44,361 nucleotides of DNA. Source: an uncultured Clostridiaceae bacterium (GTDB lineage: Bacteria; Bacillota; Clostridia; Lutisporales; Lutisporaceae). The stretch spans positions 19,338 through 63,698 of the forward strand of contig CAZMPR010000001.1 in NCBI GenBank assembly GCA_964568265.1, in the 5' to 3' direction. This document shows, in pieces, positions 9,653 to 44,140 of this stretch. The position numbers and the translations under genes were made by a program. Below the pieces are notes generated by a model that worked only from the letters and a program-made list of their open reading frames with translations, made no database searches and was not told the DNA's origin. The first letter of the stretch is position 1; each line of letters opens with the position of its first letter.

Positions 9653-9757
9653 GAATTGCATAAAGATACTATTTTAAAAAATAATAGAATCTTATTAAAA
9701 CGACTATTACATCTTATCTATGGAGAATATATGTTACTTTAACAGGTGTGTAAAAAG

Positions 9758-10276: not shown

Positions 10277-10338
10277 CTTTTAAGAAAGATTATTTAAGCG
10301 AATAATAAATGAAAGAATCATAAAATGTGGGAGGCTTT

Positions 10339-11400: not shown

Positions 11401-11438
11401 GTGCAGAAACAAATAATCAATCTTATTTGGAGGTTAAA

Positions 11439-11663
11439 ATGATAAATAAATTGCTGGAAATAATAAATGGTATCTTAGAAAACACAAATAGGGAGACTAT
11501 ACAAGAATTAAGTGAGGAAATGTCATTAAGAAAAGACTTAGATTTCGATTCTTTAGACTTGGCGGTATTGACTGTAAATATCGAAAGCGAGTTTGATATC
11601 GATATTTTTGAAGAAGGTAATATAGATACTATAGATGAGATTATTAAGAGGCTGCAAAAATGA
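11439..11663 (+). CDS. acyl carrier protein, canonical DSL class
   Basis: 74 aa. ATG 11439 follows GGAGG. The motif is DLDFDSLDLAVLTVNIE. The 11376 start in the ORF track overlaps the KAS III 3' end. Confidence 0.8.
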   Translation: MINKLLEIINGILENTNRETIQELSEEMSLRKDLDFDSLDLAVLTVNIESEFDIDIFEEGNIDTIDEIIKRLQK

Positions 11664-13599: not shown

Positions 13600-13705
13600 A
13601 TTAGATAACTTAAATATTAGTAATTGAAAATTGTGTTTTTTCTGTTTTTCTAATAATCGGATATATTCTGTTACATGTTTAAATCTCAAAGTGGAGGTAG
13701 TTGAT

Positions 13706-14584: not shown

Positions 14585-14598
14585 TAGGGGGAAATATA

Positions 14599-17095: not shown

Positions 17096-18376
17096 ATGCA
17101 AAAGCTTATAATTAATAAATTTGGGCCTATAAAAAATTGCGAGTTTTTCATAAAAGACTTTCTGATATTAATCGGCGAGCAAGCAACCGGTAAAAGTATT
17201 ATTTGCAAAAGCATATATTTCTTTAAATCCGTAAGGGATGATTTAAAATCATATGTTTATCGAATAATAAACAATGATTTCAACGAAGATGAGCTTCCTG
17301 CTAAATATATTGAGGACTTATTAAGAAATAAATTTAATAAATTGTTTGGGATAAGAGAATTTGATTCTGATTTTTCAATGAAATATTATTTTGACGACAA
17401 TGTGCATATTAGCATAAAATGTAGCGCGATTACTAAGAAGGCTATTGAATTCCAGTTTTGTGATGAAATAATGAGGTTTATAGAGCTAATGCAAGAAAAG
17501 ACTATTAGCCAATATTCAACATTAAAAAAGATTGATAATATTGACAGTACATATTATCAATTGGAAAAAAACAAGATATATCAAATGCTTACTAAAGAAA
17601 TAAACTTATTTTTTCGGGAAGACAAAGATATTTTTTACATACCGGCTGAAAGAGGACTTTTATCTCTTATGACAAATCAGCTTTTGAATATTGATTTGGA
17701 TAGTGTCGATTATGTAACAGGTGAATTTCTAAAACTGATACAAAAGCAAAGAAATATGTTTGACCCTATATTAAAAGAGGCTTTAATTGAAAATGACTCT
17801 TATGCAGATGATATAAACAAAGATCAAAAGGAAACAATCAAAAAGATTCTTAAAGGCGAGTATTATTATCTGGATAATAAAGAACTTCTAAAGATCAAAA
17901 AAGATTCCTCTCTTCAAATAAACTATACATCATCAGGGCAGCAGGAAGTATTATGGATTTTAAATCTGTTACAAATCTGGATAAAGCAAAACAGAAATGT
18001 TTTTGTTGTTATTGAGGAGCCTGAGGCACACTTATTTCCTAAAACACAAAAAGAGGTAGCGGAGTATATATCGTACTTCTTTAACAGCGGTGATAATCAA
18101 ATTATAATCGCTACCCATAGCCCCTATTTATTAACTGCTGTAAATAACTTACTTTACGCTAACAAGGTGGGGAAAACCAATTATAAAAAGGTAAATGAGA
18201 TTATTAACAATAAAAAATGGTTGGATTTTGATAGATTTGATGCGTATTTGGTAGGAGCAGATAAAGAAAGATATATAAAATCTATAGTAGACGGTGAGTT
18301 ACAGGAAATAGCTGCAGAAGAAATAGATGGAGTATCAGATGAAATAAGGAGCAGAATATTGGCGGTGCTGTATTAA
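17096..18376 (+). CDS. ABC-fold / AAA_21-type ATPase, soluble, orphan
   Basis: 426 aa. Walker A is GEQATGKS (res 27-34), the signature-like motif is SSGQQ (res 279-283), Walker B is VFVVIEEPEAHL, and the H-loop is ATHSPYLL. About 245 aa separate Walker A from the signature, unlike transporter nucleotide-binding domains. There is no TM segment and no adjacent permease or nuclease gene. Confidence 0.7.
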   Translation: MQKLIINKFGPIKNCEFFIKDFLILIGEQATGKSIICKSIYFFKSVRDDLKSYVYRIINNDFNEDELPAKYIEDLLRNKFNKLFGIREFDSDFSMKYYFDDNVHISIKCSAITKKAIEFQFCDEIMRFIELMQEKTISQYSTLKKIDNIDSTYYQLEKNKIYQMLTKEINLFFREDKDIFYIPAERGLLSLMTNQLLNIDLDSVDYVTGEFLKLIQKQRNMFDPILKEALIENDSYADDINKDQKETIKKILKGEYYYLDNKELLKIKKDSSLQINYTSSGQQEVLWILNLLQIWIKQNRNVFVVIEEPEAHLFPKTQKEVAEYISYFFNSGDNQIIIATHSPYLLTAVNNLLYANKVGKTNYKKVNEIINNKKWLDFDRFDAYLVGADKERYIKSIVDGELQEIAAEEIDGVSDEIRSRILAVLY

Positions 18377-28951: not shown

Positions 28952-29174
28952 ATCCCAGCGGATGTACGGTTAATTCTTGGATATTTAGTAGGTGAAAATT
29001 TTGGAGACTGAATCTAAAAATATAATGTCAGTATGTGATTTATATAAAACTTTCATAACGAACCGATTAAGCGATATTTTAGAATATGATGAGAAGCCTA
29101 ATGAAAAGTATGGTTAACTATATAAAAAATTGTATTATTTAGATAGTTCACTGATGTAGAGAGGGGTGAATCTA

Positions 29175-32100
29175 ATGAATACCAATTTATCAAATTACCC
29201 TCAACTCCAATCAGCACTTAGGCAAAATAAATCTATCGTTTATCTATGCGGAGCTGGGCTGTCAAAGGCTCTTGGTAGCCACAAGTATAGCTGGTATAAC
29301 TGGATTGCGGCAGCAAGTGAATATTTGTCCACTGCTGATTCAGAGGAACTAAAAGTCCTATTGAATTCACCAGAAGAAAACGCATTAATCACAGCTGCGG
29401 GTTATGCTATACAGAGGACAAAGCAAAACGGAACCTATAATGATTATATGAATATGACAATTGGTTCTCTGACTGTAAAAAATGATTCCTTAGCATCTTC
29501 GTTCCAATCTGTCAACCGCGCCGGAGATTTTATAGCAACTACTAATTATGATTTACTGCTTGAACAAGCCACAGGCTTGGGCTCTTATACATATACCCAA
29601 TCGGGACATATCCTAAAAACATTAAAGGGAGATGCTGAAAGAAAAGTAATTCATTTGCATGGTCGATATGACGCCGATCGGGGAATAGATGATATTATTG
29701 CCGATTCTAGTCAATATAATTTTGTTGTAGCAAATCAGGGTGCTCAGTTTATTCAAAATCTGCTCAGTACAAACACAATTATCGTTATCGGCTGTGGTGC
29801 AACTTTAGATGATCCAAATCTATCAGGGTTTTTATCATTCGCACAAAAACAATTAGGTATATCAGTTCTTTATTTTTACTTATACAAGGGCGATGCAACT
29901 AGTACAGACAAATCATTACCTGATAATTTCATTCCGGTATCCTACGGCGATAACCATAATAAGTTGTCCGGATTTTTACGCGAAATTGTCTTATATAGGC
30001 TTAATCATTTGGCTTTCTCCAAGATGATAAGAATAAACCCCTATGTGGATTCCGAAAATAAAGGTTCAGCATATGGCCGACTTCATTTCTCTAATGAATT
30101 TAGTCTGTTTACCGGGCGTGATGAAGAATTGCGGGAGTTGGACGGATTTACATGTTGCGACCAAGAGCTATGTTGGTGGGCAATTACGGGTGAAGGCGGA
30201 TTTGGAAAGAGTAGGCTTCTACTCGAATGGTTGAAGCGCCTTCCCAATAACTGGTTTGGTTTCTTCGGTGAAACAAATTCAGAATCAATTTATGAATACC
30301 AGCAATTCAATCCGTTTAATAACACAATTATTATTTTAGACTATATTTTAGGTAATGAGGCTGACTGCGCAGCTATTATATCAACTGCCTATACAGTATT
30401 TGCAGATACTCCGTTTAAGCTGAGAATAGTTCTTGTTGATAGATTTTTTAATGATAGCAAAATTGGGTGGTATGATACACTGCTTAAGGAGTTAAAGCCG
30501 CAAGCAAAAGTTAAGTTTATAGGCAGCTGCTATACGGGAGAAAAACTTGTACCATTAAAAATTGGAAGGTTAATGGAGTCCGATGAACGTAAGCATGTTG
30601 AGAACTACCTTGAATCGTATCTTGGAATATTAGATGATGCTGTAAAAAGTAAATATACAGTTTGTTTTGCAGAAACAGCTTTAATAATTTACGAAAAGTT
30701 CTGCTCATCATTAGGTGACGAATACCACAGACCTTTGTTTTCAAATATATTTGTGGAAGTATGGATATCAAAAGACGGCGAGTTAGATGTTTACGGTATA
30801 AGAGAGCTGCTAGGCCAGTTCCTTGAAAAAGAAACAAAGCGTTGGTTACTTAGATTTGGCGGCGATAGTGGGCTGTTGTATGCTTACCAGATTCTTTTAG
30901 CCTTTGCATCAGCATCGCAGCTCTATGTATTGCAGGACGAGCTAGATATTTATCAAGAGTATTCTGATAGACTATTAGATTTTGTAGAATCTGAGAAGGT
31001 TGCTGGTAAAAGGAAAAAATCATTAGATGATCTGTTTATGTATCAAGAATACGCACGTAATTATGAAAGCGTTGAAGAGAGCGATTTAAATGTCTACTAT
31101 GAGAAAACTCAAGTGTTAGCAACTGATTCTAATTATTTGAGAAAAGAAAAGAATGGAGTTCCTATTTTATTAACAATATTAGCTCCTGAGTATCCAGATA
31201 TTATCCTTGAGTTTTTTGTTGATTACTATATAGATAAAGAGCATTGGATTATTTTTGCCCAAGAAGTACGAGAATATGAGAATGTGTGGTTTAATAGATT
31301 TCTTGTGCGAGGTATGGAAGATTTCCCCGATACAGAGTCATTTATTGAGATGTATTTTGCACCTCTTAAAGATCCTAAAGATACTTTTGGGTTTATAATT
31401 ACTGCCTTGCCCTACGTCAGAAAATTTGCTGAACGGGGCAAACTGCCAAAGATAATCGATACTCTCAGTACTGCTGGTATGTCGAAGGAATTTGGTCTTT
31501 ATGAGCTCGAATTATGGAGAAGAATTGCAGTAGTTTATAGTGAAAGGAAAGAGCATAATGATCTTTACGTTGCAGGACTTCGGTTCGCCGACTATATAAA
31601 ACAGAGAAAACAAATAGGTGAAATAATAAAAAACCTTCCAGAGATTATGAAAGGATTTTGTACTGAATTATTGAATGCACAACAGATTGATTTGTGTGCC
31701 CAACTAATTAAACGCTTTGATGGCATCGCATATGATGGATACATTGCGATAACTTGTTCTCTCATATATTATTATTTGATAAACTATCAGCTACATTATG
31801 GAAGCACTGAAAATGTAACAGAGCATTTGAAAGGAATATTGAGGCATTTGAGGAAGCATCCAAATGATGATGATATAATCGGTCATTTTGTTAATGCCAC
31901 GGATGAAATAAGAGAAAGTGTAAATCAGAATGCCGATACGGTCTTACTTAATAAACTTGTATCCATAGTTGAGCAAGCATACGACTGCAGCAAGAACGAA
32001 AAAATTGCAGAAGTTTTGGCAATTATCGAAGCTTCAAGGTTTTTCGAAAATATAGCAGGTAACAATCGAGGGTTTGTCCAGAAAGCACAAAAGCGCGTGA

Positions 32101-32459
32101 ATGATTTGTTCCAAGCATATGAAGATAATGTAGATGTAATACTTTCATATGCTTCCGTTACGGCGTTTATCTATCTTGAAGAGTTTAAACACATTTCTGA
32201 TAAAGAGCTGGATCAGTTCAAATCATGGAAGGATAGTTATCCTGAAAGAGCCGGTTTGTTAGAAGCATACGGAAAGATATTGTTGGCAAAATGGTTTAAT
32301 CTGACTGATGCATTTGAAGAGGATAATGCAAAGCCTGTTTTCAGACAAGTCGAGGATATAGCAAAAGTGCTTGCCGAAAGGCATGAAATGCCAGAGTTAC
32401 TGTTTAGAACACTTAAGATTAGAGGAATGGGTTGCTATTTGGACTTTTATGATTTGTAA
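29175..32459 (+). CDS. SIR2-like domain fused to STAND-type P-loop NTPase and helical repeat C-terminus (Avs5/AVAST type V-like)
   Basis: The N-terminal SIR2_2-type motifs are YLCGAGLSKALG, ATTNYDLLLE, VIHLHGRYD and VIGCGATLDDPNL. Walker A is GEGGFGKS (nt 30189-30212) and Walker B-like is NNTIIILDY. About 650 aa of helical sequence follow. The start could be ATG 29175 or GTG 29166. Confidence 0.75.
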   Translation: MNTNLSNYPQLQSALRQNKSIVYLCGAGLSKALGSHKYSWYNWIAAASEYLSTADSEELKVLLNSPEENALITAAGYAIQRTKQNGTYNDYMNMTIGSLTVKNDSLASSFQSVNRAGDFIATTNYDLLLEQATGLGSYTYTQSGHILKTLKGDAERKVIHLHGRYDADRGIDDIIADSSQYNFVVANQGAQFIQNLLSTNTIIVIGCGATLDDPNLSGFLSFAQKQLGISVLYFYLYKGDATSTDKSLPDNFIPVSYGDNHNKLSGFLREIVLYRLNHLAFSKMIRINPYVDSENKGSAYGRLHFSNEFSLFTGRDEELRELDGFTCCDQELCWWAITGEGGFGKSRLLLEWLKRLPNNWFGFFGETNSESIYEYQQFNPFNNTIIILDYILGNEADCAAIISTAYTVFADTPFKLRIVLVDRFFNDSKIGWYDTLLKELKPQAKVKFIGSCYTGEKLVPLKIGRLMESDERKHVENYLESYLGILDDAVKSKYTVCFAETALIIYEKFCSSLGDEYHRPLFSNIFVEVWISKDGELDVYGIRELLGQFLEKETKRWLLRFGGDSGLLYAYQILLAFASASQLYVLQDELDIYQEYSDRLLDFVESEKVAGKRKKSLDDLFMYQEYARNYESVEESDLNVYYEKTQVLATDSNYLRKEKNGVPILLTILAPEYPDIILEFFVDYYIDKEHWIIFAQEVREYENVWFNRFLVRGMEDFPDTESFIEMYFAPLKDPKDTFGFIITALPYVRKFAERGKLPKIIDTLSTAGMSKEFGLYELELWRRIAVVYSERKEHNDLYVAGLRFADYIKQRKQIGEIIKNLPEIMKGFCTELLNAQQIDLCAQLIKRFDGIAYDGYIAITCSLIYYYLINYQLHYGSTENVTEHLKGILRHLRKHPNDDDIIGHFVNATDEIRESVNQNADTVLLNKLVSIVEQAYDCSKNEKIAEVLAIIEASRFFENIAGNNRGFVQKAQKRVNDLFQAYEDNVDVILSYASVTAFIYLEEFKHISDKELDQFKSWKDSYPERAGLLEAYGKILLAKWFNLTDAFEEDNAKPVFRQVEDIAKVLAERHEMPELLFRTLKIRGMGCYLDFYDL

Positions 32460-32490
32460 AACTATATTTTAATGGTCTTATTAAATTATT

Positions 32491-32790
32491 CCAGCCACAA
32501 ATAAGATTAACTCATTTATTTAATGAAGCCTCTCATACATATTTGGGTATGTCATTATAATAGTTGGAATTGTTAATGCTGATAAACGAGATTTTAATCA
32601 TTATTATTGAAGGCAAAGCAATTAATGATTTTCTTGATTCTCAAGTTGCCAAGGCAAGAGGTGAAGAAATTAGATAGGAAGATATGAAGTGGGGAGCTTT
32701 GGAGTATTTGAAACTGTGTAGAAGGGATTCGCTTCCGGTATGAAAAGACAAGATGTGTTGGAATATAAAGCTATCGCATTAAATAATTTG
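32491..32790 (+). pseudogene. heavily decayed remnant of a paralogue of the 42277-42903 small CxxC-protein gene
   Basis: 32519-32577 aligns to 42343-42402 at about 83% nucleotide identity (9 mismatches and 1 gap in 60). Flanking fragments translate to recognisable pieces (NEASHTYLG; GKA; C..PV; EYKA) in shifting frames with several stops. Confidence 0.4.
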
Positions 32791-33362: not shown

Positions 33363-33466
33363 CGAGGCGGCACCATATAAGGTGTACATTTAAAATTCAA
33401 AACACAATATATTGTATTAATTTTAATATATGGTTAATAAGGACGATGAGATTGGGGGTGAAAGTT

Positions 33467-33688
33467 ATGGGTAAGAATCAGCATGTAGTGCCACATAAGA
33501 ATGGTTGGGCTGTTAAAGGGGCAGGAAATATCAAGGCTACTTCTATTCATAGCACTCAAGAAGAAGCAAGAAAAGCAGCTAGGGAGATCGCAATAAACCA
33601 AAAATCTGAACTTTTAATTCACAGACCTGACGGAAGGATTAGGGACAAACATTCTTATGGTAATGATCCATTTCCACCAAGAGGTTAG
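33467..33688 (+). CDS. DUF2188-like small protein
   Basis: 73 aa. GKNQHVVPHKNGWAVKGAGN...EEARKAAREIA...ELLIHRPDGRIRD matches my memory of the DUF2188 pattern. ATG 33467 follows GGGGGTGA. Confidence 0.65.
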   Translation: MGKNQHVVPHKNGWAVKGAGNIKATSIHSTQEEARKAAREIAINQKSELLIHRPDGRIRDKHSYGNDPFPPRG

Positions 33689-33731: not shown

Positions 33732-33868
33732 ATTACATAAAGACTTTTTAGAAGTCTGAGTTTAATAATATATTGGAGACCTGCCGAGATTATTGTGCTT
33801 AGATTATATATTATGAATATAGGGGATTAGCTGTAATAAAGTATAGCATGGTAAAGAGAGGTGCAATT

Positions 33869-35239
33869 ATGTCCAATGAGATATCCCTAAGGAATATAAA
33901 TTACTATCTTGAATTAGAGAATGCAAATTTACCCATTTATGCAGCTAAGAATTCTTCAAAATTTTTGACAAGAAGATTATATGGTAAAGAAGAAGATAAA
34001 GAAAGACTTGCCTTTCAAAGAGATAGGGATAGAATAATTCATTCAAGAGCTTTTAGAAGACTGATGCATAAAACGCAAATTTTTTGTGCAAACAAAGGTG
34101 ATCATTTTAGAAATAGACTCACTCATACTTTGGAAGTAAGTCAAATATCAAGATCAATAGCTAAAAGATTAGGTTTAAACGAAGAATTAACGGAAGCAAT
34201 TGCTTTAGGTCATGATTTGGGTCATACCCCTTTTGGTCATATTGGAGAGCAAACTTTACATAATATTATATCAGGCAGAATGAAGATTGATGGTGAATTG
34301 AATTCTATGCCCAATGCTGGTGGCTTTAAACATAATTACCAGGGATTGCATTTAGTAGATAACCTAGAACAAAACGCTAGCCATAGCAAAGGAATGAATC
34401 TTACATTGGCCGTAAGAGAAGGTATATTAAAACACACGAAAAGGAGTTTAAGCATTAAAATTAGGGACTATAAGAATGATAAGATTGATAAAATTGTAGA
34501 AAGAATAGACTATGGTAATAATATAAATTTAGAAGATATAAACATAAACGATCCTTCATTTACTTTAGAGGGACAAGTAGTGGCTATATCGGATGAAATA
34601 GCACAGTGTACACACGATCTTGAGGACGGTATAAGGGCGGGTGTAATTAATATGAAAGATTTAAAAAACTCGGACTTAGTTAATGATGTATGCGAAAAAT
34701 ATCAATATAATTATCTTTTTACACAGCATTTAGAAGTTGCTGAAATTAGAAATACATTAATAAAAAAGATGATTGGATTTTTGTTAAATAATGCTGCCGT
34801 TAATACTATGGCTAAATTGAAGGAAGTTAATTTAAACAACATATATATTGAAAGTAAAGGAGCTATTATTTTTAAGAATCTAATAGTTGATTTTGATGCT
34901 GATGTGGCAGGAAAAGTAAAGGAATTATATAAGCTAATAACTAATCTGGTTATTAATTCAGTAGAAGTTAGCATTACGGATAGTAAGGCAATTTATTTAA
35001 TTACAGAGCTATTTAAGTCTTATTATACCTATCCACAACAATTGCCTGAATATATATTAAAAAAATACTATAAGGGCAAAGGGATTTCAGTTAACAGAAA
35101 AGATATTGAGGAAATGACATTTCAATTTAGGCGTGATCCTTTATTTATTAGATTGATAGGCGATCATATAAGTAGTATGACAGATCAATATGCTATACGA
35201 GAATACGACAAATTGCACTCTTCAAAGTTTTACGGGTAG
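33869..35239 (+). CDS. dgt: dGTP triphosphohydrolase (Dgt/HD-domain dNTPase family)
   Basis: Contains [42 protein letters not shown] and [14 protein letters not shown] 33869 follows AAGAGAGGTG. Confidence 0.85.
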
Positions 35240-35621: not shown

Positions 35622-35805
35622 AAATAAATGCACTTTATCATAAGTTTAAATAAGGTAGAGATTGTAATTATTAATAAAGTAATAGATGAAAAAAGAAAAA
35701 AAGGAAATAATAACTATTTAAACAGCATCTAAGTTATCCAGCTATTCATTTTAAATTGAATATAGTTAATTTGATACAACTAGGCCATTATTAGGGGGAT
35801 GAAAG

Positions 35806-38790
35806 ATGAGATTATTATTAATTCAATTAAGTGATATGCACTGTATCAATTCGGATAATTATTTATTTGAAAAAGTTGATAAGGCTATTAGAGCAATTGA
35901 TACACTCGGTAAAGTAGATGCCGCTGTTTTAATTTTTTCAGGTGATCTCACCGATACAGCAAATCCGAATGAATTCAAAGTAGGAAGGAAAGTAATAGGG
36001 AAATTTCTTTCACAATTGTCAGGAGTACTAGAATGTGGGTTTATTCCTACAAAAATTGTTCCTGGTAATCACGACATATTCCTACCTAAAGAATGCCGTG
36101 GAGCAAATGAAATCAAAAAATGGAACAAGCAAGAGCATCTTGAAGATGAGCTATCATATCTCAAAAATTTCTTCGAGTATTCAACAAGCAAGAATTGCTT
36201 TGTAAAAGATAAATTATGTGATGTTGACACTATTGTTGTTGGGGGGTTAAAATTACAGATTTGTTTATTAAACTCTGCACCGTATTCAACTCGGGACCCT
36301 GATGATAAGCAGTTTCACTATTTACCTGGTTATGTCTCCGAAAAGTTAGTTAGAGATCCTGAAGCCGACTTGAAAATTACAGTTATGCACCACCATTATG
36401 AATGGTGTGAATGGGGTACCAAAGAATTGTTAAAAAATGCTTTAGCGACTGATGATATTGTTTTCTTTGGACACGATCATAAACCAGAATCAGTTATAAT
36501 GCATAATGGTGATGGGAGTACTTTCAATATTATTATGGGGGGAAGATTTAACCTTAAAATAGACCAAGACAGTACTTTTAATGCGGTTATATTTGATAAG
36601 GAGAAGAATGTTTTCGAATTATTTAAATTCAATTGGATTATTGGAGACAGGCTATTCACTGCAGTATCCTGTGGTGAGATTAAGAAAAAGAGAAAAGCTT
36701 TTTCTCCTAAAGAATCATATTTGGCTGAGCTCCTTAAGGACAACCAGGGTATTGGGAACAGTTTTATGGATTATTATGTATTCCCAAAACTGGCTATTGG
36801 AAGAGAAGCCTTCACTTCGGAGGGAAATGTAGAATTCAATAGTGTTGAAAATATTTTTGCTGCAATTAAATCTGATAAAGCTATTGAGATAATAGGAAAT
36901 AGTAATGCAGGAAAGACTACTCTATTGAGATATTTGTATTTTAGGTCAATAGAGTTTGGTTTCATACCAATTCTAATTGAAAAAAAAGATTACAAAGATA
37001 ATAGAATAGATAGAATGTTACGTGGCTTATTCGAAGATCAGTATGGAGTCATTTCAAAATATGGCTATGATTCATATGATCAAGCGGATAGATCAAAACA
37101 AATTATTTTTATAGATGATATAGACCTAATTTCAAGCCATAAGGCACAAGAAAACTTGATTAGAAACGTATTTGACTCTGGAAGACTTCTTATTTACACA
37201 ACAAAAGAAAAAAATATAAATCTTGAGGACATTGTAAAAACAAAATTGCAGGGTGTAACTATTAATACTATTGAAATCAAACCGTTTTACAAAGAAACAC
37301 GTGATAAATTAGTGCAAAAAGTATGTAAAGTTTGTGGAAAAGAACAAAAAGAAGTAGATGCAATTATAGGAGCGCTTGACTATATGGTTCAATGCCAAAC
37401 AAGCTTTTTTACATTTACGCCGGTAAACATGTTGCAATATATTAAGTTTTTCTTATATGGCGGAGCTAATAATCGGAAAAATGTGCAGACAATTTCTATG
37501 GTATTTGAAACAAACATAAGAAATGCTATTCTCTCATGCGAAAAAGATTTTGTTGCTAATGTTTATCTTATGGTACTTGAATACATAGCTGATCAAATGT
37601 ATTTCGTTTTTAAAACCGAAAAAATAAGCATTACAGATTTTGAAACAATAATTGAAGAGTTTAAAAATTTAAGGAGGGTAGAGGTAAATGCTAAGCTGTT
37701 TTTAAACACGTGTATAGAAGCTCGTATCTTTAAGGATGATAATAGATCATTTAGTGTTAGTTTTTTCGATAGCAATACCTACGCATATTTCGTGGCGAAG
37801 GCTATAAATAGAGAGTTCGAAAAAGATCAGACAAATACAAATAAGCTGTTATTTATTATGGATCGGATATGTTTTGGAATCAATGATACAATCATTTTAT
37901 TCTTATCCTTTATTAGGAACAATACAAATATAATTTTAAAAATTGCTGAAGATGCCACAGAGATGATGGCTAATTTTCCAGAGTGGAGCTTAGAAGCAAT
38001 TAATATTCCATTTCTGCATCAGTTTACAAAATTGTCAGACAAGTTACCATCGGCAGAAGAGAAACGGAATGTTCATAAACAGACCGAGAAAGTTGAAGAA
38101 GAATGTCATGATGCAATTCAATTTCGTAGCATTTTTGATTATAATGAAGCTGATGTCAATAAGAAACGTTATGTAGTTTTGCGAGCGTTGAAATATTCTC
38201 AGCTTATTGGACGGGCATTAGTTGACCAGTACGGTGCTTTGAATGCTAATGAAATTGATAGGTTGGTTAAAACACTTTATTCCATACCACAAAAAGTGAT
38301 TTATGCAATACTTAAGCCCCAACAGGATCATATTAGTGATATTATAAATAGTATTATCACATTTGTTAGGGAGAAGATGCCAGACGAAGATGTAAAAGAT
38401 GATCATATTAAGCTATTACTGGGAGAGGTAGGCACCTTTATAGCTTTAGGTATAATGAATGATATTGCTTATAATGCTTCAAATGAGAATACAATCATAG
38501 CGTTAAGAAATTATAGTCCAAATAATATTAATTATAAAATTATGCTATTGATGATGGAGGAAAATGTAGGTATTACATCTGAATTTGTATCGAAAGCTAT
38601 TGCATTGCGAAAAGAGTTAGACGACTGTTATTATGCCAAAACATTAATTTCACAAATCGCAAGAAAACATGTTATACTTACAGACAATATCGATCATAGA
38701 CAGGTTGACAGGCTTGTATCTGGAAAAGTTATATCAACTAGCGGCAAAGCTACTTTACTGCTTAAGCAAGGTAAAAAGGGTAGAAGCTAA
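35806..38790 (+). CDS. calcineurin-like metallophosphoesterase fused to P-loop NTPase and large helical C-terminal region
   Basis: 994 aa. Metallophosphoesterase motifs appear in order: LSDMH (D10/H12), SGDLTD (D47), PGNHD (N88/H89), VMHHHYEW and FGHDH. Walker A is GNSNAGKT (res 364-371, nt 36895-36918) and Walker B-like is QIIFIDDIDL. About 550 aa of helical sequence follow. AGGGGGA lies 6 nt upstream of the ATG. Confidence 0.75.
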   Translation: MRLLLIQLSDMHCINSDNYLFEKVDKAIRAIDTLGKVDAAVLIFSGDLTDTANPNEFKVGRKVIGKFLSQLSGVLECGFIPTKIVPGNHDIFLPKECRGANEIKKWNKQEHLEDELSYLKNFFEYSTSKNCFVKDKLCDVDTIVVGGLKLQICLLNSAPYSTRDPDDKQFHYLPGYVSEKLVRDPEADLKITVMHHHYEWCEWGTKELLKNALATDDIVFFGHDHKPESVIMHNGDGSTFNIIMGGRFNLKIDQDSTFNAVIFDKEKNVFELFKFNWIIGDRLFTAVSCGEIKKKRKAFSPKESYLAELLKDNQGIGNSFMDYYVFPKLAIGREAFTSEGNVEFNSVENIFAAIKSDKAIEIIGNSNAGKTTLLRYLYFRSIEFGFIPILIEKKDYKDNRIDRMLRGLFEDQYGVISKYGYDSYDQADRSKQIIFIDDIDLISSHKAQENLIRNVFDSGRLLIYTTKEKNINLEDIVKTKLQGVTINTIEIKPFYKETRDKLVQKVCKVCGKEQKEVDAIIGALDYMVQCQTSFFTFTPVNMLQYIKFFLYGGANNRKNVQTISMVFETNIRNAILSCEKDFVANVYLMVLEYIADQMYFVFKTEKISITDFETIIEEFKNLRRVEVNAKLFLNTCIEARIFKDDNRSFSVSFFDSNTYAYFVAKAINREFEKDQTNTNKLLFIMDRICFGINDTIILFLSFIRNNTNIILKIAEDATEMMANFPEWSLEAINIPFLHQFTKLSDKLPSAEEKRNVHKQTEKVEEECHDAIQFRSIFDYNEADVNKKRYVVLRALKYSQLIGRALVDQYGALNANEIDRLVKTLYSIPQKVIYAILKPQQDHISDIINSIITFVREKMPDEDVKDDHIKLLLGEVGTFIALGIMNDIAYNASNENTIIALRNYSPNNINYKIMLLMMEENVGITSEFVSKAIALRKELDDCYYAKTLISQIARKHVILTDNIDHRQVDRLVSGKVISTSGKATLLLKQGKKGRS

Positions 38791-38896
38791 ACATCGTGCC
38801 GGTCCTGCCCCGACTGGTCATTTTTGCCCTATAGATAATGACCTAACTATAAGGCAAGATCTAGCATGTCATATTGCCACGCTGACGATGTTTAGC
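38786..38896 (+). other. nested inverted-repeat element (possible structured RNA) overlapping the stop of the 994-aa gene
   Basis: The outer 12-bp perfect inverted repeat is GCTAAACATCGT (38786-38797) / ACGATGTTTAGC (38885-38896). Inner stems are GGTCATT (38816-38822)/AATGACC (38837-38843) and GGCAA (38853-38857)/TTGCC (38874-38878). There is a locally GC-rich core, GTGCCGGTCCTGCCCCGACTGG. Confidence 0.25.
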
Positions 38897-39262: not shown

Positions 39263-40108
39263 ATGGGGAATAAACTTTATTTAAATATGAAAGAAGATCA
39301 AGTTGTATTATTTGCCGATATTCTTGGCTTTAGTGATGCTATAAAAAAATTTGAGTATGTAACAATGTGTGATAAAGGCGGTATAATTGTAAATTTCCCA
39401 AGAGTTTACCAAACATATGTAGAAAAATATTCCGTTGAGAAACAAAAAGATTTAGGGATTAAGTTGCTTTGGGTTTCTGATTCAGTTATCGTTTCGGCAC
39501 CTTTAAAGAATGTGGATTCAATCTTTGCTGCATTAAATGACTTTACAAATAATATGTATAGTTCTAATTTAGCTTTACGAGGAGCGATAGCAGTAGGAAA
39601 GCTATACCACGAGAATAATGTATGGGGGCCTGCACTAGTAGATGCTGTAAGAGACGAGAAGGATAAAGCTAATTATCCGCGAATTATAATAAAGAAAGAA
39701 CACTTTGATAAATTAAATGTAAATTCTAAATACAAAAAATATATCGTTGAATCTGATGTTGAAGGATATTATCAATATGAATTTTTTGATCAATATATAG
39801 GTGATATTGTATGCAAAAAGGCAAATACAATTGCAAAGCTATCTGTGTATATCAAATTCATTAGGAGCCAATATACTGAAAATGATTGTCCATCTGTAAA
39901 AAAAAGATATAAGTGGCTTGCCCAAAAATTACTGGATACGGTTAATAAACATAGCTCTTATATAGATGAGTATGTGCTTAAAAATAAAGAATTTATTACA
40001 TTAAGCGGTGAAATTGAACGCTTGACAAGTCATATTCCGTTAAAATTATCTCTCGAAGAAATAGTTCATAATGGGGAGGATTTTTTAAATAATAAAACTA
40101 TTTTATAA
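39263..40108 (+). CDS. class III nucleotidyl cyclase-like domain protein (Pycsar PycC-like fold) with ~120-aa C-terminal extension
   Basis: 281 aa. VVLFADILGFS (D19) and LLWVSDSVIV (D73) sit where cyclase-homology domains place the two metal-binding Asp. LRGAIAVGKLYHENNVWGPALVDAVRDEK mirrors the lRiGihtG...vwG..Vn.AaR.E segment. GGGAGGG ribosome-binding site upstream. Confidence 0.5.
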   Translation: MGNKLYLNMKEDQVVLFADILGFSDAIKKFEYVTMCDKGGIIVNFPRVYQTYVEKYSVEKQKDLGIKLLWVSDSVIVSAPLKNVDSIFAALNDFTNNMYSSNLALRGAIAVGKLYHENNVWGPALVDAVRDEKDKANYPRIIIKKEHFDKLNVNSKYKKYIVESDVEGYYQYEFFDQYIGDIVCKKANTIAKLSVYIKFIRSQYTENDCPSVKKRYKWLAQKLLDTVNKHSSYIDEYVLKNKEFITLSGEIERLTSHIPLKLSLEEIVHNGEDFLNNKTIL

Positions 40109-40905: not shown

Positions 40906-42225
40906 TTGAATTTTGATAAAAATGGTTTTATATTATCACATGATCAATTAATGAGAAATCAGGCTGTTGATATAAACAGGAATGATATTGAATCCCTGAT
41001 CACAAACTTTGTTAGTGAAGAAGAGCGATGGAGTCAGGCCGTAAGAGATGAAGTTAAATATAGAGATAAAAATCCAGGCTACGGTAGAGATTATATTATT
41101 GATGAGTTTAGGATAAAGAACACTGCTGGGACAGTGGTAACAATGCCCTATGGTGATATGATTACTTTTAATAGTAGCAGGCATTTCTTTAGGGGTGAGA
41201 ACCGTATTTACCCAAGCTCAATACCATCGTTGAATAGAAAGCTATTGTTCATGTCGAGTGAAGAGTATAAAGAGCTATATAGAGCTGTATCCAACTTGCG
41301 CATGTATCAGTTCTTTAAATTGATTTGGAATATACACATAGTCCCATACTGGGAAGCAAAATTATGTGATGTTAACTATAAGGCCTTGGCGCAGCATTAT
41401 GGGTTTGAAACATGCTTACTTGATTTAACTAATGATTTTAAAACTGCTTTGTTTTTTGCTACTTGCTACTATGATAATGTAGAGAACAAGTTTTTCCCAT
41501 TGACGAAAAAAATGATTGATGAGTCAGATGAAACAAGATATGGAATGCTATTTCATAGCCCAAATTGGTGTTTTGATTGGTTTAATACTGGCGGATTTAT
41601 GAATTGGGCTTCATCGCATAAAATGGAGGAATTAGGGGAGCCGTGCACAATTGATAGCGGAAAACTTGATGGCTGTGCTTTACAGATTGGGTATCAACCT
41701 TTAATGCGGTGTCATTCGCAAGGTGCGTATGTGTTTCCAATGAGGGATAATGCTCAGCTTCAGATGAATAACAAATTTGAAAAATGGCGTTTTGAGCAGA
41801 GCGAAGAACTTTCAAATTATGTTTACGAGATGATGGATTGCGGAAGAATGGTTTATCCTGAAGAAGGTATAACTTCCATTTTTGATATTTTGGGTAAGAT
41901 TCAGAAATCACATATATTTTCTGAGGATGATATTCTGTTTGTTTATGAAAATGAGAATATAGACAAGGCTTTGTTCCCGACATTGAATAAGTTTAGAAAG
42001 GCTTTAGAATTATTAGAAATACCGGTTGAAGGCGTTAAAAGGAAAATTGAATTAGTAAAAGAAGATGTCACATACCTTACGGATATGGCTAGATTGGAAC
42101 CTATTAATGTGATATATAACAATATTAATATTGGGGCTCAAATAGGAGGTATGATTCACCAAAAGGGTCCACAGAAACGTTGGCGAGAAGAGCGCTGTAA
42201 ACAAATATATGGAAAATTAATATAG
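40906..42225 (+). CDS. FRG-domain protein
   Basis: 439 aa. HFFRGENRIYPSSIPSLNRK and LAQHYGFETCLLDLTNDFKTALFFA match the FRG-domain signature (FRG...PS..R; AQHyG.pT.LLD.T....ALfFA). The TTG start at 40906 is tentative. Confidence 0.7.
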   Translation: MNFDKNGFILSHDQLMRNQAVDINRNDIESLITNFVSEEERWSQAVRDEVKYRDKNPGYGRDYIIDEFRIKNTAGTVVTMPYGDMITFNSSRHFFRGENRIYPSSIPSLNRKLLFMSSEEYKELYRAVSNLRMYQFFKLIWNIHIVPYWEAKLCDVNYKALAQHYGFETCLLDLTNDFKTALFFATCYYDNVENKFFPLTKKMIDESDETRYGMLFHSPNWCFDWFNTGGFMNWASSHKMEELGEPCTIDSGKLDGCALQIGYQPLMRCHSQGAYVFPMRDNAQLQMNNKFEKWRFEQSEELSNYVYEMMDCGRMVYPEEGITSIFDILGKIQKSHIFSEDDILFVYENENIDKALFPTLNKFRKALELLEIPVEGVKRKIELVKEDVTYLTDMARLEPINVIYNNINIGAQIGGMIHQKGPQKRWREERCKQIYGKLI

Positions 42226-42276: not shown

Positions 42277-42903
42277 ATGAACAAATTAATCTTTACCGGA
42301 AAAACCACATCAATCCAACCACGAATAAGGCTAGCTCGTTCATTTGATGAAGCCTCTTATACATATTTAGGCTATGCCATTAAAATAGCTGGAATCATTG
42401 ATAACTAACAAACCATATTCTCTATTGGCTTCGGCAAAGCAGCCCAAGCAAAGCATCAATTTAAAGTTAATGACATTATCTCCGGTGCATGTTTCCCTAT
42501 ATCGGATTCGGCCATGGAGCCGGTAGATTATTGTAAAGTATCGAAGTTAGCTAAGGCATCAGAAGGGGAGCAAGGTAGCACATCAGCTCCCTGGGAATTG
42601 GTGCCGCCGGAGTTGGAAGTTTACCAGGAAAGGGGACATCGGAGACTGGCAGCCAGGACATATGAAGTTAAATGCAGCAGCTGCATATGGGGGTCTAGGA
42701 TGCCGGTAGAAATAATAGTTGAAAACTGGAATCCGAGAGGCCGGAGGAAGTACCGGTTTGAGACATTTTGTTATGGACCTTTTAGTGGCAAATTGTATAA
42801 GGCCTAGCCTAATCGGGAAGTTGAAGGTAAGAACGGGATGGTTTATGTGGAGGGAGATTGGGTTGATGAAGAGGCTACCGGGCATAGAGAGATGGATGAG
42901 TAG
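42277..42903 (+). pseudogene. small CxxC-containing conserved hypothetical gene with two in-frame stops (TAA 42406-42408, TAG 42805-42807)
   Basis: ATG 42277 follows GAGGGGAGG. A single frame reads MNKLIFTGKTTSIQPRIRLARSFDEASYTYLGYAIKIAGIIDN*QTIFSIGFGKAAQAKHQFKVNDIISG...KCSSCIWGSRMPVEIIVENWNPRGRRKYRFETFCYGPFSGKLYKA*PNREVEGKNGMVYVEGDWVDEEATGHREMDE, ending at TAG 42901-42903. The track lists only the 42514-42807 piece. GC content is markedly higher than in the surroundings. Confidence 0.5.
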
Positions 42904-42925
42904 GCGTAGATATGGGGGTGGAGAC

Positions 42926-44140
42926 ATGGCTTCAATTGGAATGATTAATATCGGGGGAAGAGATGATTTAACCCAAACCATCGAATTCCATAGTGCAGTT
43001 GTTTTCTTACTAGATTCATTGAGTAAGATTAATAAAATATTCTATTTTCAAGATAATGAATGGGAATTAGAGGTCAAGTCAGGAAATCATTCAATCGTTG
43101 CACGTAGTCATTTAAAGTTATCTGTAGATGTGTTGCTGTCTAAGGGTTTCGAATTATGTCAACAGGCATTGGATATTCTTTCAGTTGAAAGAAAAGGAAA
43201 TATGCAAATAAAGAAACCAGGTGAAGAACACATCGTTTTATTTATGGACCATGATAAGGTTATATTGAGGGAGAGCTCATTTAATGATTTATTCATGGGG
43301 GTAGAAGCTTCTATTACTAAAGTAGACAGGGATGGGAATATTATTCTGGATCCACCATCCCCGGAAATCAATTGGATACCGGCATTTCGTTTTTATCGTT
43401 TTTCACAGGCAAGTAATGATTTATTTGAGGCTTACCGCAATTTATATCTTGGTTTAGAAGCTATTCTTAATCAGATTTGCCCTAAAGGAAAAAGGGAACG
43501 AGAAAGGCAATGGCTTGAACGAGCACTAAATTTAATATCTGATAAAATCAGGCTACCCGAAATTATGAAAGATACCTCAGATCCGGTGGAAAGTTTTATT
43601 ACAAACCAATATGTGAATGTTAGATGCAAGCTGTTTCATGCTAAAGGAAACAAAGCAATAATACCACACCAGGATCTTAACCCGGTTTTAATATCAAAAG
43701 CATATGCTAAATTGATAGCGATTTGGCGTGAAATAGCTACTGTATATTACAGCATACCCGGAGGCGGCGGAGCAATTACGAATATCGGGTTTAAATCCAT
43801 GATGGATGCAGCATTTAAAAATGAATTTTCCTTTATAGCAACCAATGATAAAACCCCACCCAAAGATGAAGACGAAGGAATTAACCATGGGATGACCGAC
43901 ATCTATTCATATGATATTCAAGAATATGACAGCAACTCAATAGCTGGACAAGCATTATTAAAAGGGTACATGGAAAAAGCCAATATTACAAAAGTTAAGG
44001 TTGTTTATAAGACGGGAATAAAAGTAGGGGATATCTTATACTTAATTCACCTCATTCCAGATGGGCTTAATCTAACTGGGATAGATAGGTTTGAAAGTTA
44101 TCAGACAGTAAGGCTAGTTAATAAAAGTCTAGGAAGATGA
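42926..44140 (+). CDS. hypothetical 404-aa protein with an Rx4H (HEPN-like) motif
   Basis: ATG 42926 follows GGGGGTGGAG. The upstream part of the 42719 track ORF overlaps the preceding gene in another frame. RCKLFH (R233-H238, nt 43622-43639) sits in a predicted helical segment after FEAYRNLYLGLEAIL. I recognise no other motif. Confidence 0.6.
   Translation: MASIGMINIGGRDDLTQTIEFHSAVVFLLDSLSKINKIFYFQDNEWELEVKSGNHSIVARSHLKLSVDVLLSKGFELCQQALDILSVERKGNMQIKKPGEEHIVLFMDHDKVILRESSFNDLFMGVEASITKVDRDGNIILDPPSPEINWIPAFRFYRFSQASNDLFEAYRNLYLGLEAILNQICPKGKRERERQWLERALNLISDKIRLPEIMKDTSDPVESFITNQYVNVRCKLFHAKGNKAIIPHQDLNPVLISKAYAKLIAIWREIATVYYSIPGGGGAITNIGFKSMMDAAFKNEFSFIATNDKTPPKDEDEGINHGMTDIYSYDIQEYDSNSIAGQALLKGYMEKANITKVKVVYKTGIKVGDILYLIHLIPDGLNLTGIDRFESYQTVRLVNKSLGR

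What the first reader, a model, noticed from the sequence alone, without database searches (positions are those of the whole stretch)
35806..38790. 994-aa metallophosphoesterase + P-loop NTPase + helical-sensor fusion: candidate undescribed single-gene defence protein
Seen: a complete calcineurin-like phosphoesterase motif set (DxH, GD, GNHD, HHH, GHDH) occupies the first ~230 aa. A Walker A (GNSNAGKT, res 364-371) and Walker B (IIFIDDID) follow, then about 550 aa of helical sequence with no motif I recognise. Established: this phosphoesterase fold includes Mre11/SbcD-type nucleases and CpdA-type cyclic-nucleotide phosphodiesterases. An effector-NTPase-sensor layout is the hallmark of STAND/Avs-like immunity proteins. 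Inference: the protein is an NTP-gated nuclease or cyclic-nucleotide-degrading effector. I cannot name a described defence family with exactly this architecture and cannot verify novelty without a search. Its position between a dGTPase and a cyclase-like gene raises the possibility of a functional link to nucleotide signalling.
Basis: partly seen in the sequence, partly recalled or inferred. Interest (0 to 1): 0.72.

Follow-up and report, generated by a model that had tools for sequence, protein, structure and literature searches.

The report
Distant relative of DS-8 anti-phage protein
The 994-aa gene is real and looks like a stand-alone bacterial immune receptor (phosphoesterase + NLR-like ATPase + helical sensor), but this architecture is already known: it is a distant relative of DS-8, an E. 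coli anti-phage protein validated in 2025-26 whose chemistry is still unsolved.

Summary
The ORF 35806-38790(+) encodes 994 aa with every stated motif at the stated residues, its own RBS and a terminator-like hairpin. The "undescribed" claim is not supported. The protein matches NCBIfam NF053861 "DS8_antiphage" end-to-end (E 4.7e-88, 296 bits, below the 790-bit equivalog cutoff). It is only 17-20% identical to E. coli DS-8 (WP_032203427.1), but profile comparisons support homology over about 800-990 residues. The three residues whose mutation abolishes DS-8 defence (D52, N84, K375) align to D47, N88 and K370. PADLOC (2023) already listed the family as candidate PDC-S60. The AF2 model (pLDDT 85.9) matches NOD2, NLRC4 and Avs4 for the NTPase/helical part, and Rv0805, Lmo2642 and SMPDL3B for the N-terminus. 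No Mre11/SbcD appears among the 50 listed hits. A Streptococcus relative carries TIR/DUF4062 in place of the phosphoesterase, so the N-terminus is a swappable effector. The superfamily is large (293 50%-identity clusters at E<=1e-30), is patchy, and sits in varied defence or mobile islands with no conserved partner. The adjacent dGTPase and the 281-aa gene (a class-III cyclase fold, confirmed) never co-occur with homologues, so a functional link is not supported. Verdict: new member of a known kind. The substrate and the trigger are unknown.

The parts
35793..35799 (+). Shine-Dalgarno sequence AGGGGGA, 6 nt upstream of the ATG
   Evidence: Read directly from the sequence.
35806..38790 (+). Complete CDS of 994 aa, a member of the DS-8 superfamily (metallophosphoesterase, NACHT-like STAND NTPase, helical C-terminus)
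   Evidence: ORF. NF053861 match over residues 7-966 against profile 1-984/994, E 4.7e-88. hhalign against DS-8 gives 98.6%. AF2 model pLDDT 85.9.
35806..36690 (+). N-terminal binuclear metallophosphoesterase domain (aa ~1-295, including a beta-sandwich extension at 257-293), the presumed effector
   Evidence: Pfam Metallophos 6-227. Motifs D10/H12, D47, N88/H89, H195/H196 and H223/H225 are 96-100% conserved. Fold hits include Rv0805 (TMt 0.69), Lmo2642, SMPDL3B and Vps29. A TIR/DUF4062 domain replaces it in a relative.
36871..37290 (+). P-loop NTPase alpha/beta core (aa ~356-495), with Walker A 364-371 (nt 36895-36918) and Walker B 433-440 (nt 37102-37125)
   Evidence: Motifs. G369 100%, K370 96% and D437 99% conserved. 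K370 aligns to DS-8 K375, whose mutation abolishes defence. Weak Pfam nSTAND3, AAA_14 and AAA_22 hits. Fold hits to NOD2, NLRC4 and Avs4.
37291..37875 (+). Helical plus winged-helix-like module of the STAND NTPase (aa ~496-690), with R499 conserved in all 129 sequences and P539 in 95%
   Evidence: AF2 secondary structure. Pfam nSTAND_NTPase4 at 606-663, E 4.6e-5, below cutoff. Conservation figures.
37876..38787 (+). All-helical C-terminal region (aa ~691-994), the presumed sensor. It is homologous to the C-terminus of DS-8 and contains the clade-specific ICFGIND motif at 688-694
   Evidence: AF2. NF053861 alignment runs to profile position 984. A superfamily HMM covers DS-8 residues 3-993. Anchor residues F699, E764 and P828 are shared with DS-8.
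38798..38828 (+). Terminator-like hairpin with a T-run, 8 nt after the stop codon
   Evidence: Consensus scan. This is a pattern match only: 2 such sites were found in the region against 2.7 expected by chance.

Best explanation
The gene encodes a stand-alone NLR-like (STAND) anti-phage protein of the DS-8 / PDC-S60 superfamily. Shown: it has DS-8's three-part architecture from end to end, it keeps every residue known to be essential in DS-8, and its N-terminal domain sits in a slot that relatives fill with other effector domains. Inferred by analogy with Avs and bNACHT proteins: the helical C-terminus senses a phage-derived cue. That cue relieves autoinhibition and lets the central NACHT-like P-loop module bind ATP and oligomerise. 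Oligomerisation brings the N-terminal binuclear metallophosphoesterase domains together and activates them. The enzyme then hydrolyses a phosphodiester or phosphoanhydride substrate. I favour a nucleotide-type small molecule (nucleotide or cyclic-nucleotide pool) over bulk DNA or RNA. The result would be to stop phage replication, probably at the cost of the infected cell. The gene works alone and not together with the neighbouring dGTPase or cyclase-like gene. The confidence of 0.8 applies to the family assignment and the stand-alone defence role. The small-molecule substrate preference on its own I would put at about 0.45.
For: Family. NF053861 DS8_antiphage matches end-to-end at E 4.7e-88. 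hhalign of the family profile against DS-8 gives 98.6% probability over 802 columns. A superfamily HMM built without DS-8 hits DS-8 residues 3-993 at E 2.3e-106. DS-8 D52, N84 and K375, which are essential for defence (PMC13092281), align to D47, N88 and K370. PADLOC PDC-S60 hits the window protein, DS-8 and relatives.
Architecture. The AF2 model has pLDDT 85.9. Foldseek returns NOD2 (E 3.5e-10), NLRC4 and Avs4 for the NTPase/helical part, and Rv0805, Lmo2642 and SMPDL3B for the N-terminus, with no Mre11/SbcD among the 50 listed hits (54 hits at E<=1e-3). The best PDB sequence hits are Rv0805/Icc and GpdQ.
Effector slot. A Streptococcus plasmid protein of 846 aa has TIR_2/DUF4062 fused to the same NTPase-sensor module (hhalign 96.7%, 564 columns).
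Stand-alone and defence context. No window neighbour recurs in 22 homologous loci. Homologues lie beside QatABCD, GmrSD, GAPS4, NERD, type I R-M, Eco57I, recombinases and transposases. In the window the gene lies among SIR2-STAND, PDC-S16, dGTPase and PDC-S15 genes. It has its own RBS and a terminator-like hairpin. E. coli DS-8 is present in only 7 of 5426 complete genomes, in an islet flanked by recombinase genes.
Against: There is no experiment on this protein or its clade. Identity to the validated DS-8 is only 17-20% (BLASTP E 0.005, N-terminus only). The NCBIfam score of 296 bits is far below the 790-bit equivalog cutoff, so equivalent function is not guaranteed. Pfam does not place the NTPase in NACHT; it gives only sub-threshold nSTAND3 and nSTAND_NTPase4 hits. 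The substrate, the trigger, oligomerisation and abortive infection are all inferred, and the DS-8 paper itself leaves the substrate open. Enrichment near defence genes was assessed qualitatively and was not tested against a background.
Confidence: 0.8

Rival explanations
1. The architecture and triggering are the same, but the phosphoesterase is an Mre11/SbcD-like nuclease that degrades phage and/or host DNA once the STAND module is activated.
For: Mre11 and SbcD share the metallophosphoesterase fold. There is a weak TIGR00619 sbcD hit (E 0.0012, residues 30-90). Nucleases are the commonest Avs effectors (general knowledge; Avs4 is among the fold hits).
Against: The sbcD hit scores 18.7 bits against a 77.65 cutoff and covers only 60 residues. 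No Mre11/SbcD structure is among the 50 listed Foldseek hits, whereas Rv0805, Lmo2642, SMPDL3B and Vps29 are. The best PDB sequence matches are class-III phosphodiesterases and GpdQ. The only effector swap found is to TIR/DUF4062, a NADase-type domain, not to a nuclease.
Confidence: 0.25
2. It is a signal-erasing enzyme. The phosphoesterase specifically degrades a cyclic or oligonucleotide messenger, as the DS-8 authors suggested from the SMPDL3A (cGAMP phosphodiesterase) similarity. In this genome the messenger could be the product of the adjacent cyclase-fold protein.
For: The DS-8 paper proposes a cyclic-nucleotide substrate (PMC13092281). Fold neighbours Rv0805 and Lmo2642 are cNMP phosphodiesterases and SMPDL3B is also hit. 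The gene directly downstream has a class-III cyclase fold with invariant putative metal-binding Asp residues.
Against: No cyclase is conserved next to any of 22 homologues. The cyclase-like protein's own homologues sit inside BREX operons without a DS-8-like gene. DS-8 protects as a single gene in E. coli MG1655, so no dedicated partner cyclase is required. Degrading an immune signal would normally weaken defence, not provide it.
Confidence: 0.12
3. It is not a defence gene. It is a housekeeping ATPase-nuclease (SbcCD/Mre11-Rad50-like) or a STAND-type regulator that happens to lie in a variable region.
For: Many STAND clades are not defence-related (PMC13581612). The NCBIfam score is below the equivalog cutoff.
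Against: The NTPase folds like NOD2 and NLRC4, not like an ABC/SMC ATPase with a coiled coil. There is no DNA-binding output domain. Distribution is patchy: 7 of 5426 E. coli genomes, with scattered Clostridia, Treponema and Prevotella. The genomic context is always variable, defence-related or mobile. A homologue with the same architecture has experimentally shown anti-phage activity.
Confidence: 0.06

Closest known systems
DS-8 (E. coli WP_032203427.1; DefensePredictor, Science 2026 / bioRxiv 2025; NCBIfam NF053861)
   Same: Both are single-gene systems of about 1000 aa, collinear from end to end: N-terminal metallophosphatase, NACHT-like P-loop NTPase, helical C-terminus. The catalytic and Walker A residues essential in DS-8 are conserved. 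Both lie in variable islets.
   Different: Identity is only 17-20%. The window protein scores 296 bits against the 790-bit cutoff, where DS-8 itself scores 967. It belongs to a Clostridia-centred clade, not an Enterobacterales one. The clade-specific C-terminal motif ICFGIND (688-694) is not conserved in DS-8. It has not been tested.
PADLOC candidate PDC-S60 (models PDLC05050 and PDLC05051, PADLOC-DB v2.0.0, 2023)
   Same: DS-8 hits both models (E 1.3e-98 and 6.5e-30). The window protein hits PDLC05050 over residues 320-859, and its relatives hit the full-length PDLC05051.
   Different: The window hit is weak (E 2e-9, 34 bits) and covers only the NTPase-sensor part. PDC-S60 was a computational candidate without a described mechanism.
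Avs / bNACHT bacterial NLR-like STAND defence proteins
   Same: The tripartite effector-NTPase-sensor logic is shared. The NTPase/helical part superposes on NOD2, NLRC4 and Avs4. The DS-8 authors report HHblits 99.8% to bNACHT01 for DS-8. The N-terminal effector is modular.
   Different: No PADLOC Avs or bNACHT model and no Pfam NACHT model hits this protein. The effector is a metallophosphoesterase, not a nuclease, SIR2, TIR or protease. The sensor target is unknown.
Streptococcus sp. FDAARGOS_192 plasmid protein WP_080610178.1 (TIR/DUF4062-STAND)
   Same: It has the same NTPase plus helical C-terminal module (hhalign 96.7%, 564 columns; PDC-S60 E 5.4e-42).
   Different: Its N-terminus is TIR_2/DUF4062 and not a metallophosphoesterase, and it is 846 aa long.
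Class-III cNMP phosphodiesterases and GpdQ (Rv0805, Icc/CpdA, Lmo2642), and SMPDL3A/B
   Same: The binuclear metallophosphoesterase fold and motif set are shared. These are the best PDB sequence hits and among the best fold hits for the N-terminal domain (Rv0805 TMt 0.69; SMPDL3B E 6.4e-6).
   Different: Sequence similarity is marginal (E 0.03-0.7). Those enzymes are free-standing or secreted, whereas here the domain is fused to a STAND NTPase. The substrate is unknown.
DS-9A (two-gene DS-9 system, NF053862)
   Same: The metallophosphatase domain is related (E 7e-12 over residues 22-197).
   Different: DS-9A has no NTPase or sensor and works with a HAD phosphatase partner. No HAD gene is adjacent in the window.

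Membership tests
DS-8 (NF053861 equivalog) | N-terminal metallophosphatase with the catalytic residues shown to be essential (DS-8 D52, N84) | tested here: met
   D47 and N88 align to D52 and N84 and are 100% conserved across 129 sequences.
DS-8 (NF053861 equivalog) | Central P-loop NTPase with the essential Walker A lysine (DS-8 K375) | tested here: met
   K370 aligns to K375. The Walker B residue D437 is 99% conserved.
DS-8 (NF053861 equivalog) | Collinear homology over the whole length, including the C-terminal ~600 aa | tested here: met
   The HMM match covers residues 7-966 against profile 1-984/994 in one stretch. hhalign gives 98.6% over 802 columns. A superfamily HMM covers DS-8 residues 3-993.
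DS-8 (NF053861 equivalog) | Score at or above the curated equivalog cutoff (790 bits) | tested here: not met
   The window protein scores 296 bits, and eight other superfamily members score 293-394 bits. DS-8 itself scores 967. It is therefore a superfamily member but not an NCBI-defined equivalog.
DS-8 (NF053861 equivalog) | Acts as a single gene, with no conserved partner | tested here: met
   No shared neighbour in 22 loci, varied contexts, and its own RBS and terminator-like hairpin.
DS-8 (NF053861 equivalog) | Confers phage resistance | not testable with these tools
   This needs plaque assays. It has been shown only for E. coli DS-8 (PMC13092281).
STAND / NLR-like defence NTPases (Avs, bNACHT) | NTPase domain with a STAND (NACHT-like) fold followed by helical and winged-helix modules | tested here: met
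   Foldseek gives NOD2 E 3.5e-10, NLRC4 5e-8 and Avs4 3.7e-7. The Walker B hhhhDDxD pattern and the conserved R499 and P539 fit this fold.
STAND / NLR-like defence NTPases (Avs, bNACHT) | Recognised by curated NACHT, Avs or bNACHT sequence models | tested here: not met
   Pfam gives only sub-threshold nSTAND3, nSTAND_NTPase4, AAA_14 and AAA_22 hits. PADLOC gives only PDC-S60.
STAND / NLR-like defence NTPases (Avs, bNACHT) | Modular N-terminal effector that is exchanged among relatives | tested here: met
   A TIR_2/DUF4062 variant has a homologous NTPase-sensor module.
STAND / NLR-like defence NTPases (Avs, bNACHT) | C-terminal sensor binds a phage protein and triggers oligomerisation | not testable with these tools
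   This is inferred by analogy (PMC13581612).
SbcCD / Mre11-Rad50 repair nuclease-ATPase | SbcD/Mre11-type nuclease domain above the family threshold, and an ABC/SMC ATPase with a coiled coil | tested here: not met
   TIGR00619 scores 18.7 bits against a 77.65 cutoff, over residues 30-90 only. No Mre11, SbcD or Rad50 is among the listed fold hits, and the NTPase matches NLRs.
Class-III cyclic-nucleotide phosphodiesterase (CpdA / Rv0805) | Metallophosphoesterase motif set with closest similarity to this class, and cNMP hydrolysis | tested here: inconclusive
   The motifs are present and Rv0805 is the best sequence and fold neighbour of the domain. However, the sequence E-values are only 0.03-0.14, and activity cannot be tested here.

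The most novel reading that the evidence does not exclude
The metallophosphoesterase may not be a generic toxic nuclease. It could be a specific hydrolase of a nucleotide messenger or an essential nucleotide cofactor, which would be a new effector chemistry for NLR-like receptors. In this genome it might also cross-talk with the adjacent rare class-III-cyclase-fold protein, giving a local pair that writes and erases a nucleotide signal. Co-occurrence data argue against an obligate pair but cannot exclude local interplay. The substrate question is open for the whole DS-8 superfamily.
Probability: 0.1. Interest if true: 0.7.

Novelty: new member of a known kind. Interest (0 to 1): 0.3.

Why it matters
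The finding shows that the recently validated DS-8 system is not an E. coli oddity. It is the tip of a large superfamily: at least 293 clusters at 50% identity with E<=1e-30, with a tightly conserved length of about 1000 aa. The members retrieved are mostly from anaerobic Firmicutes, and the current curated cutoffs (NCBIfam 790 bits; PADLOC only weakly) do not name them. The TIR/DUF4062 variant shows that the phosphoesterase occupies a true effector slot, which narrows the mechanistic question to what the phosphoesterase hydrolyses. A divergent clade with every essential residue conserved is useful comparative material for answering that. The finding itself does not reveal a new kind of system.

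Tried and rejected
1. SbcCD/Mre11-type repair complex: rejected.
2. Operon or functional link with the dGTPase, DUF2188, 281-aa cyclase-like or FRG genes: rejected as a conserved association. tblastn and HMM searches of 27 loci found none.
3. Phage-borne gene: no tblastn hit in 50,697 phage records. Plasmid copies are rare and distant.
4. Direct PDB sequence homology: only marginal hits.
5. Retrieving full-length DS-8 through the protein search with its N-terminal 399 aa returned only fragments. I solved this via the split Citrobacter gene's DNA, then blastn in E. coli genomes, which gave L021.
6. Looking up the window's own contig returned nothing.
7. The default hmmsearch of the narrow family profile missed DS-8. 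With filters off it gives E 1.4e-23.
8. The 2026 Nature STAND survey does not mention phosphoesterase effectors in its text, and its supplements are not held.
9. tRNA and Rfam features in the window: none.
10. The GC-rich patch at 42500-42950 as a structured RNA: no Rfam hit, and fold z-scores are -0.69 and +0.36.
11. Literature on B. subtilis YydB/YydD (the top fold hit) gave nothing useful.
12. The PADLOC tally over neighbour ORFs is dominated by redundant type I specificity-subunit models and cannot serve as an enrichment statistic.
Full report
OBSERVATION. A regex check on the translation places DMH at 10-12, SGD at 45-47, GNHD at 87-90, HHH at 195-197, GHDH at 222-225, Walker A GNSNAGKT at 364-371 and Walker B IIFIDDID at 433-440. 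Pfam Metallophos covers residues 6-227 (E 3.1e-12, above threshold). A strong Shine-Dalgarno (AGGGGGA, 35793-35799) precedes the ATG. A 566-bp gap separates the gene from the upstream dGTPase gene, and a terminator-like hairpin follows the stop at 38798-38818. GC content is not anomalous relative to the surroundings.

WHAT IT IS. NCBIfam gives a single end-to-end match to NF053861 'DS8_antiphage' (residues 7-966 against profile 1-984/994, E 4.7e-88, 296 bits). It also gives a partial match of the phosphoesterase to NF053862 'DS9_1_antiphage'. PADLOC gives candidate PDC-S60 over residues 320-859. DS-8 is a single-protein system discovered by DefensePredictor (bioRxiv January 2025; Science 2026; PMC13092281). 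It has a metallophosphatase plus a NACHT domain and protects E. coli MG1655 from phage. Protection is lost in two metallophosphatase mutants and one NACHT mutant, and the substrate is unknown. The supplements identify it as WP_032203427.1 (1014 aa) with mutants D52A, N84A and K375A.

I recovered the authentic protein as L021:8001-11045. The route went through the split Citrobacter orthologue and a blastn search of complete E. coli genomes, where only 7 of 5426 carry it. RefSeq annotates it 'anti-phage protein', in an islet flanked by recombinase genes between yggR and yggS.

HOW CLOSE. Pairwise BLASTP against DS-8 is barely significant (about 20% identity over 256 N-terminal residues, E 0.005). 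Even so, D47, N88 and K370 align with D52, N84 and K375. Profile methods settle the homology:
- hhalign of the 115-sequence family alignment against DS-8 gives 98.6% probability over 802 columns, reaching DS-8 residue 889.
- The narrow family HMM with filters off hits DS-8 at E 1.4e-23.
- A broad HMM built from 127 superfamily sequences, without DS-8 or the window protein, hits DS-8 residues 3-993 at E 2.3e-106.

In a 129-sequence alignment that includes DS-8, 44 positions are at least 85% conserved. These include all metal ligands, G369/K370, D437, R499, P539 and C-terminal anchors (F653, F662, A664, F699, E764, P828) that DS-8 shares. Identity between the window protein and DS-8 in that alignment is 147/867, or 17%. 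DS-8 itself scores 967 bits on NF053861, while the window protein and eight other members score 293-394, all below the 790-bit equivalog cutoff. The protein is therefore a superfamily member and not an NCBI-defined equivalog. PADLOC's PDC-S60 is the same family: DS-8 hits its two models at E 1.3e-98 and 6.5e-30, and relatives of the window protein hit the full-length model.

SIZE AND SPREAD. A search of 5.8 billion proteins found 199 relatives, the best 120 of which are 43-72% identical and almost all 985-1010 aa. The nearest named one is a Desulfosporosinus youngiae 'metallophosphoesterase'. An exhaustive search of 1.84 billion cluster representatives found 1660 hits at E<=1e-3, 1031 at <=1e-10 and 293 at <=1e-30, mostly full-length matches of about 1000 aa. 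Species-representative genomes gave 19 loci, mostly Clostridia MAGs plus Treponema, Prevotella, Acidaminococcaceae and Erysipelotrichaceae. There was no phage hit and only a few distant plasmid copies.

STRUCTURE. The AF2 model is confident (mean pLDDT 85.9, pTM 0.67). It shows an alpha/beta-sandwich phosphoesterase with a beta extension (residues 1 to ~295), a low-confidence linker around 334-342, and a five-stranded P-loop core (~356-495). These are followed by helical and small-beta modules (~496-690) and an all-helical C-terminus (~691-994).

Foldseek against the PDB returns NOD2 (E 3.5e-10), NLRC4, Avs4 and NLRP2 for the NTPase and helical part. For the N-terminal domain it returns Rv0805 (TMt 0.69), Lmo2642, SMPDL3B and Vps29. 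No Mre11/SbcD is among the 50 listed hits, and 54 hits in total have E<=1e-3. The single best hit is B. subtilis YydB in an integrative YydD-YydB model (9a6c_B, E 9.5e-13), which I could not follow up. Sequence searches of the PDB give only marginal hits, to Rv0805/Icc and GpdQ.

CONTEXT AND PARTNERS. The first 29 kb of the window is a surface-polysaccharide biosynthesis cluster. From 29.1 kb onward lie these genes:
- a SIR2_2+AAA_16 protein of 1097 aa
- a DUF2188/PDC-S16 gene
- a dGTPase (PADLOC dGTPase E 2.7e-86)
- the DS-8-like gene
- a 281-aa gene
- an FRG/PDC-S15 gene
- a MauJ-like gene

None of these neighbours recurs next to any of the 22 homologues fetched, by tblastn or HMM. The homologues lie in varied defence and mobile contexts. 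P0002 lies beside QatABCD. P0006 lies beside NERD, DUF429 and PLD-helicase genes and transposases. P0009 lies beside GAPS4, GmrSD and an IS110 transposase. Across 148 neighbour ORFs there are serine recombinases, integrases, type I R-M, Eco57I, GmrSD, Schlafen/AlbA_2 and Gp49 genes. This is the pattern of a stand-alone defence gene. I did not compute a formal enrichment statistic.

EFFECTOR SWAP. A Streptococcus plasmid protein (WP_080610178.1, 846 aa) matches window residues 322-869 only. Pfam shows TIR_2/DUF4062 at its N-terminus and nSTAND_NTPase4 further on. hhalign to the family profile gives 96.7% over 564 columns, and it hits PDC-S60 at E 5.4e-42. The phosphoesterase therefore occupies an exchangeable effector slot. 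Earlier computational surveys had already listed calcineurin-like phosphoesterases among predicted effectors of NTPase-centred conflict systems (PMC8195603).

THE 'CYCLASE-LIKE' NEIGHBOUR. The 281-aa ORF (39263-40108) has no Pfam, PADLOC, NCBIfam or PDB-sequence hit and only four homologous clusters. Its AF2 model (pLDDT 81.8) matches class-III nucleotidyl cyclases in all 50 top Foldseek hits, including a uridylate cyclase. The putative metal-binding D19 and D73 are invariant. However, all three homologues with context lie inside type-1 BREX operons, between the PglX-like methyltransferase and PglZ, and not beside a DS-8-like gene. The adjacency in the window is best read as island co-residence.

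MECHANISM. Shown: the architecture, conservation of the residues essential in DS-8, the NLR-like fold, effector modularity and the stand-alone genomic behaviour. Inferred by analogy with Avs and bNACHT proteins (PMC13581612): the C-terminal helical region senses a phage cue, the NTPase oligomerises in an ATP-dependent way, and the clustered phosphoesterase domains become active.

For the chemistry I favour hydrolysis of a nucleotide-type small molecule over bulk nuclease activity, for two reasons. The domain's nearest sequence and fold neighbours are Rv0805, Lmo2642, GpdQ and SMPDL3B, not Mre11/SbcD. The one effector swap I found is to NADase-type domains. This preference is weak. Rival readings are listed with their refutation tests.

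VERDICT. The architecture is not undescribed, though: it is a distant, sub-threshold member of the DS-8 / PDC-S60 superfamily. The proposed link to the neighbouring nucleotide-metabolism genes is not supported. Novelty: new member of a known kind. Interest is modest at 0.3. The value lies in showing the breadth of the DS-8 superfamily and the modularity of its effector, and in providing a divergent clade for solving the unknown substrate.

Noticed in passing
window 39263-40108 (+); L022/L023 8001-8825; L024 8001-8825: This 281-aa protein has no family hit and only 4 homologous clusters. Its model has a class-III nucleotidyl-cyclase fold (all 50 top PDB fold hits), and the putative metal-binding D19 and D73 are invariant. 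All three homologues with context are embedded in type-1 BREX operons between the PglX-like methyltransferase and PglZ, overlapping the PglZ start by 4 nt. It may be an undescribed BREX-associated or stand-alone cyclase-type defence gene.
   Followed up: partly
L028:5452-7992 (Streptococcus sp. FDAARGOS_192 plasmid, WP_080610178.1): This protein has a TIR_2/DUF4062 N-terminus fused to the same NTPase-sensor module as the DS-8 superfamily. It is an effector-swapped sibling and hits PADLOC PDC-S60 at E 5.4e-42.
   Followed up: yes
window 29166-32459 (+): A 1097-aa SIR2_2 + AAA_16 protein (SIR2-STAND type, with a weak ThsA-like PADLOC hit) opens the defence island right after the polysaccharide cluster.
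   Followed up: no
window 33446-33688 and 33848-35239 (+): A DUF2188 / PDC-S16 small protein (E 2.7e-38) lies directly upstream of a dGTPase. The dGTPase hits PADLOC dGTPase at E 2.7e-86 but scores below NCBIfam's anti-phage dGTPase cutoff (195 against 400 bits), so it is unclear whether it is a defence or a housekeeping enzyme.
   Followed up: partly
window 40906-42225 (+): A 439-aa FRG-domain protein matches eleven PADLOC PDC-S15 models (best E 7.7e-10). It is another candidate defence gene in the island.
   Followed up: no
window ~32480-32625 and ~42305-42445 (+): A direct repeat of about 140 nt (63-nt core 81% identical) lies just after the SIR2-STAND stop and again just after the FRG gene stop, bracketing the 9.8-kb segment that holds the DS-8-like gene. 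One frame preserves a peptide (QPQIRLTHLFNEASHTYLG and QPRIRLARSFDEASYTYLGYAIKIAGII), which suggests a duplicated remnant of a gene's 3' end or a recombination footprint.
   Followed up: partly
window 42500-42950: A sharp GC-rich patch (up to 0.57 in a genome of about 0.31) lies upstream of, and overlaps, the annotated TTG start of the MauJ-like ORF (42719-44140). The real start of that ORF is probably further downstream. There is no Rfam hit at E<=1 and no excess RNA folding (z -0.69 and +0.36). Its origin is unexplained.
   Followed up: partly
window 17096-18376 (+): An AAA_15/AAA_21 (AbiEii/OLD-type) ATPase of 426 aa sits in the middle of the polysaccharide biosynthesis cluster.
   Followed up: no
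window 516-15930 (+): The polysaccharide/lipid cluster contains paired paralogues: two KAS-III-like genes (516-1574, 10327-11400), two AMP-binding enzymes (3320-4666, 11660-12886), two SDR genes (1561-2313, 8648-9406) and two UDP-glucose/GDP-mannose dehydrogenases (5549-6910, 14569-15930). This suggests a duplicated module.
   Followed up: no
PDB 9a6c_B (B. subtilis YydB in a YydD-YydB integrative model): This is the best Foldseek hit of the whole-protein model (E 9.5e-13, TMt 0.48, 541 columns). YydB/YydD could be a related two-protein phosphoesterase system, but no useful literature was found.
   Followed up: no
L020:5001-8053 (Citrobacter amalonaticus CP011132.1): The Citrobacter orthologue of DS-8 (81% identical over the N-terminus) is split into ORFs of 635 and 373 aa, so it is probably a pseudogene. 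It lies next to a resolvase gene.
   Followed up: no
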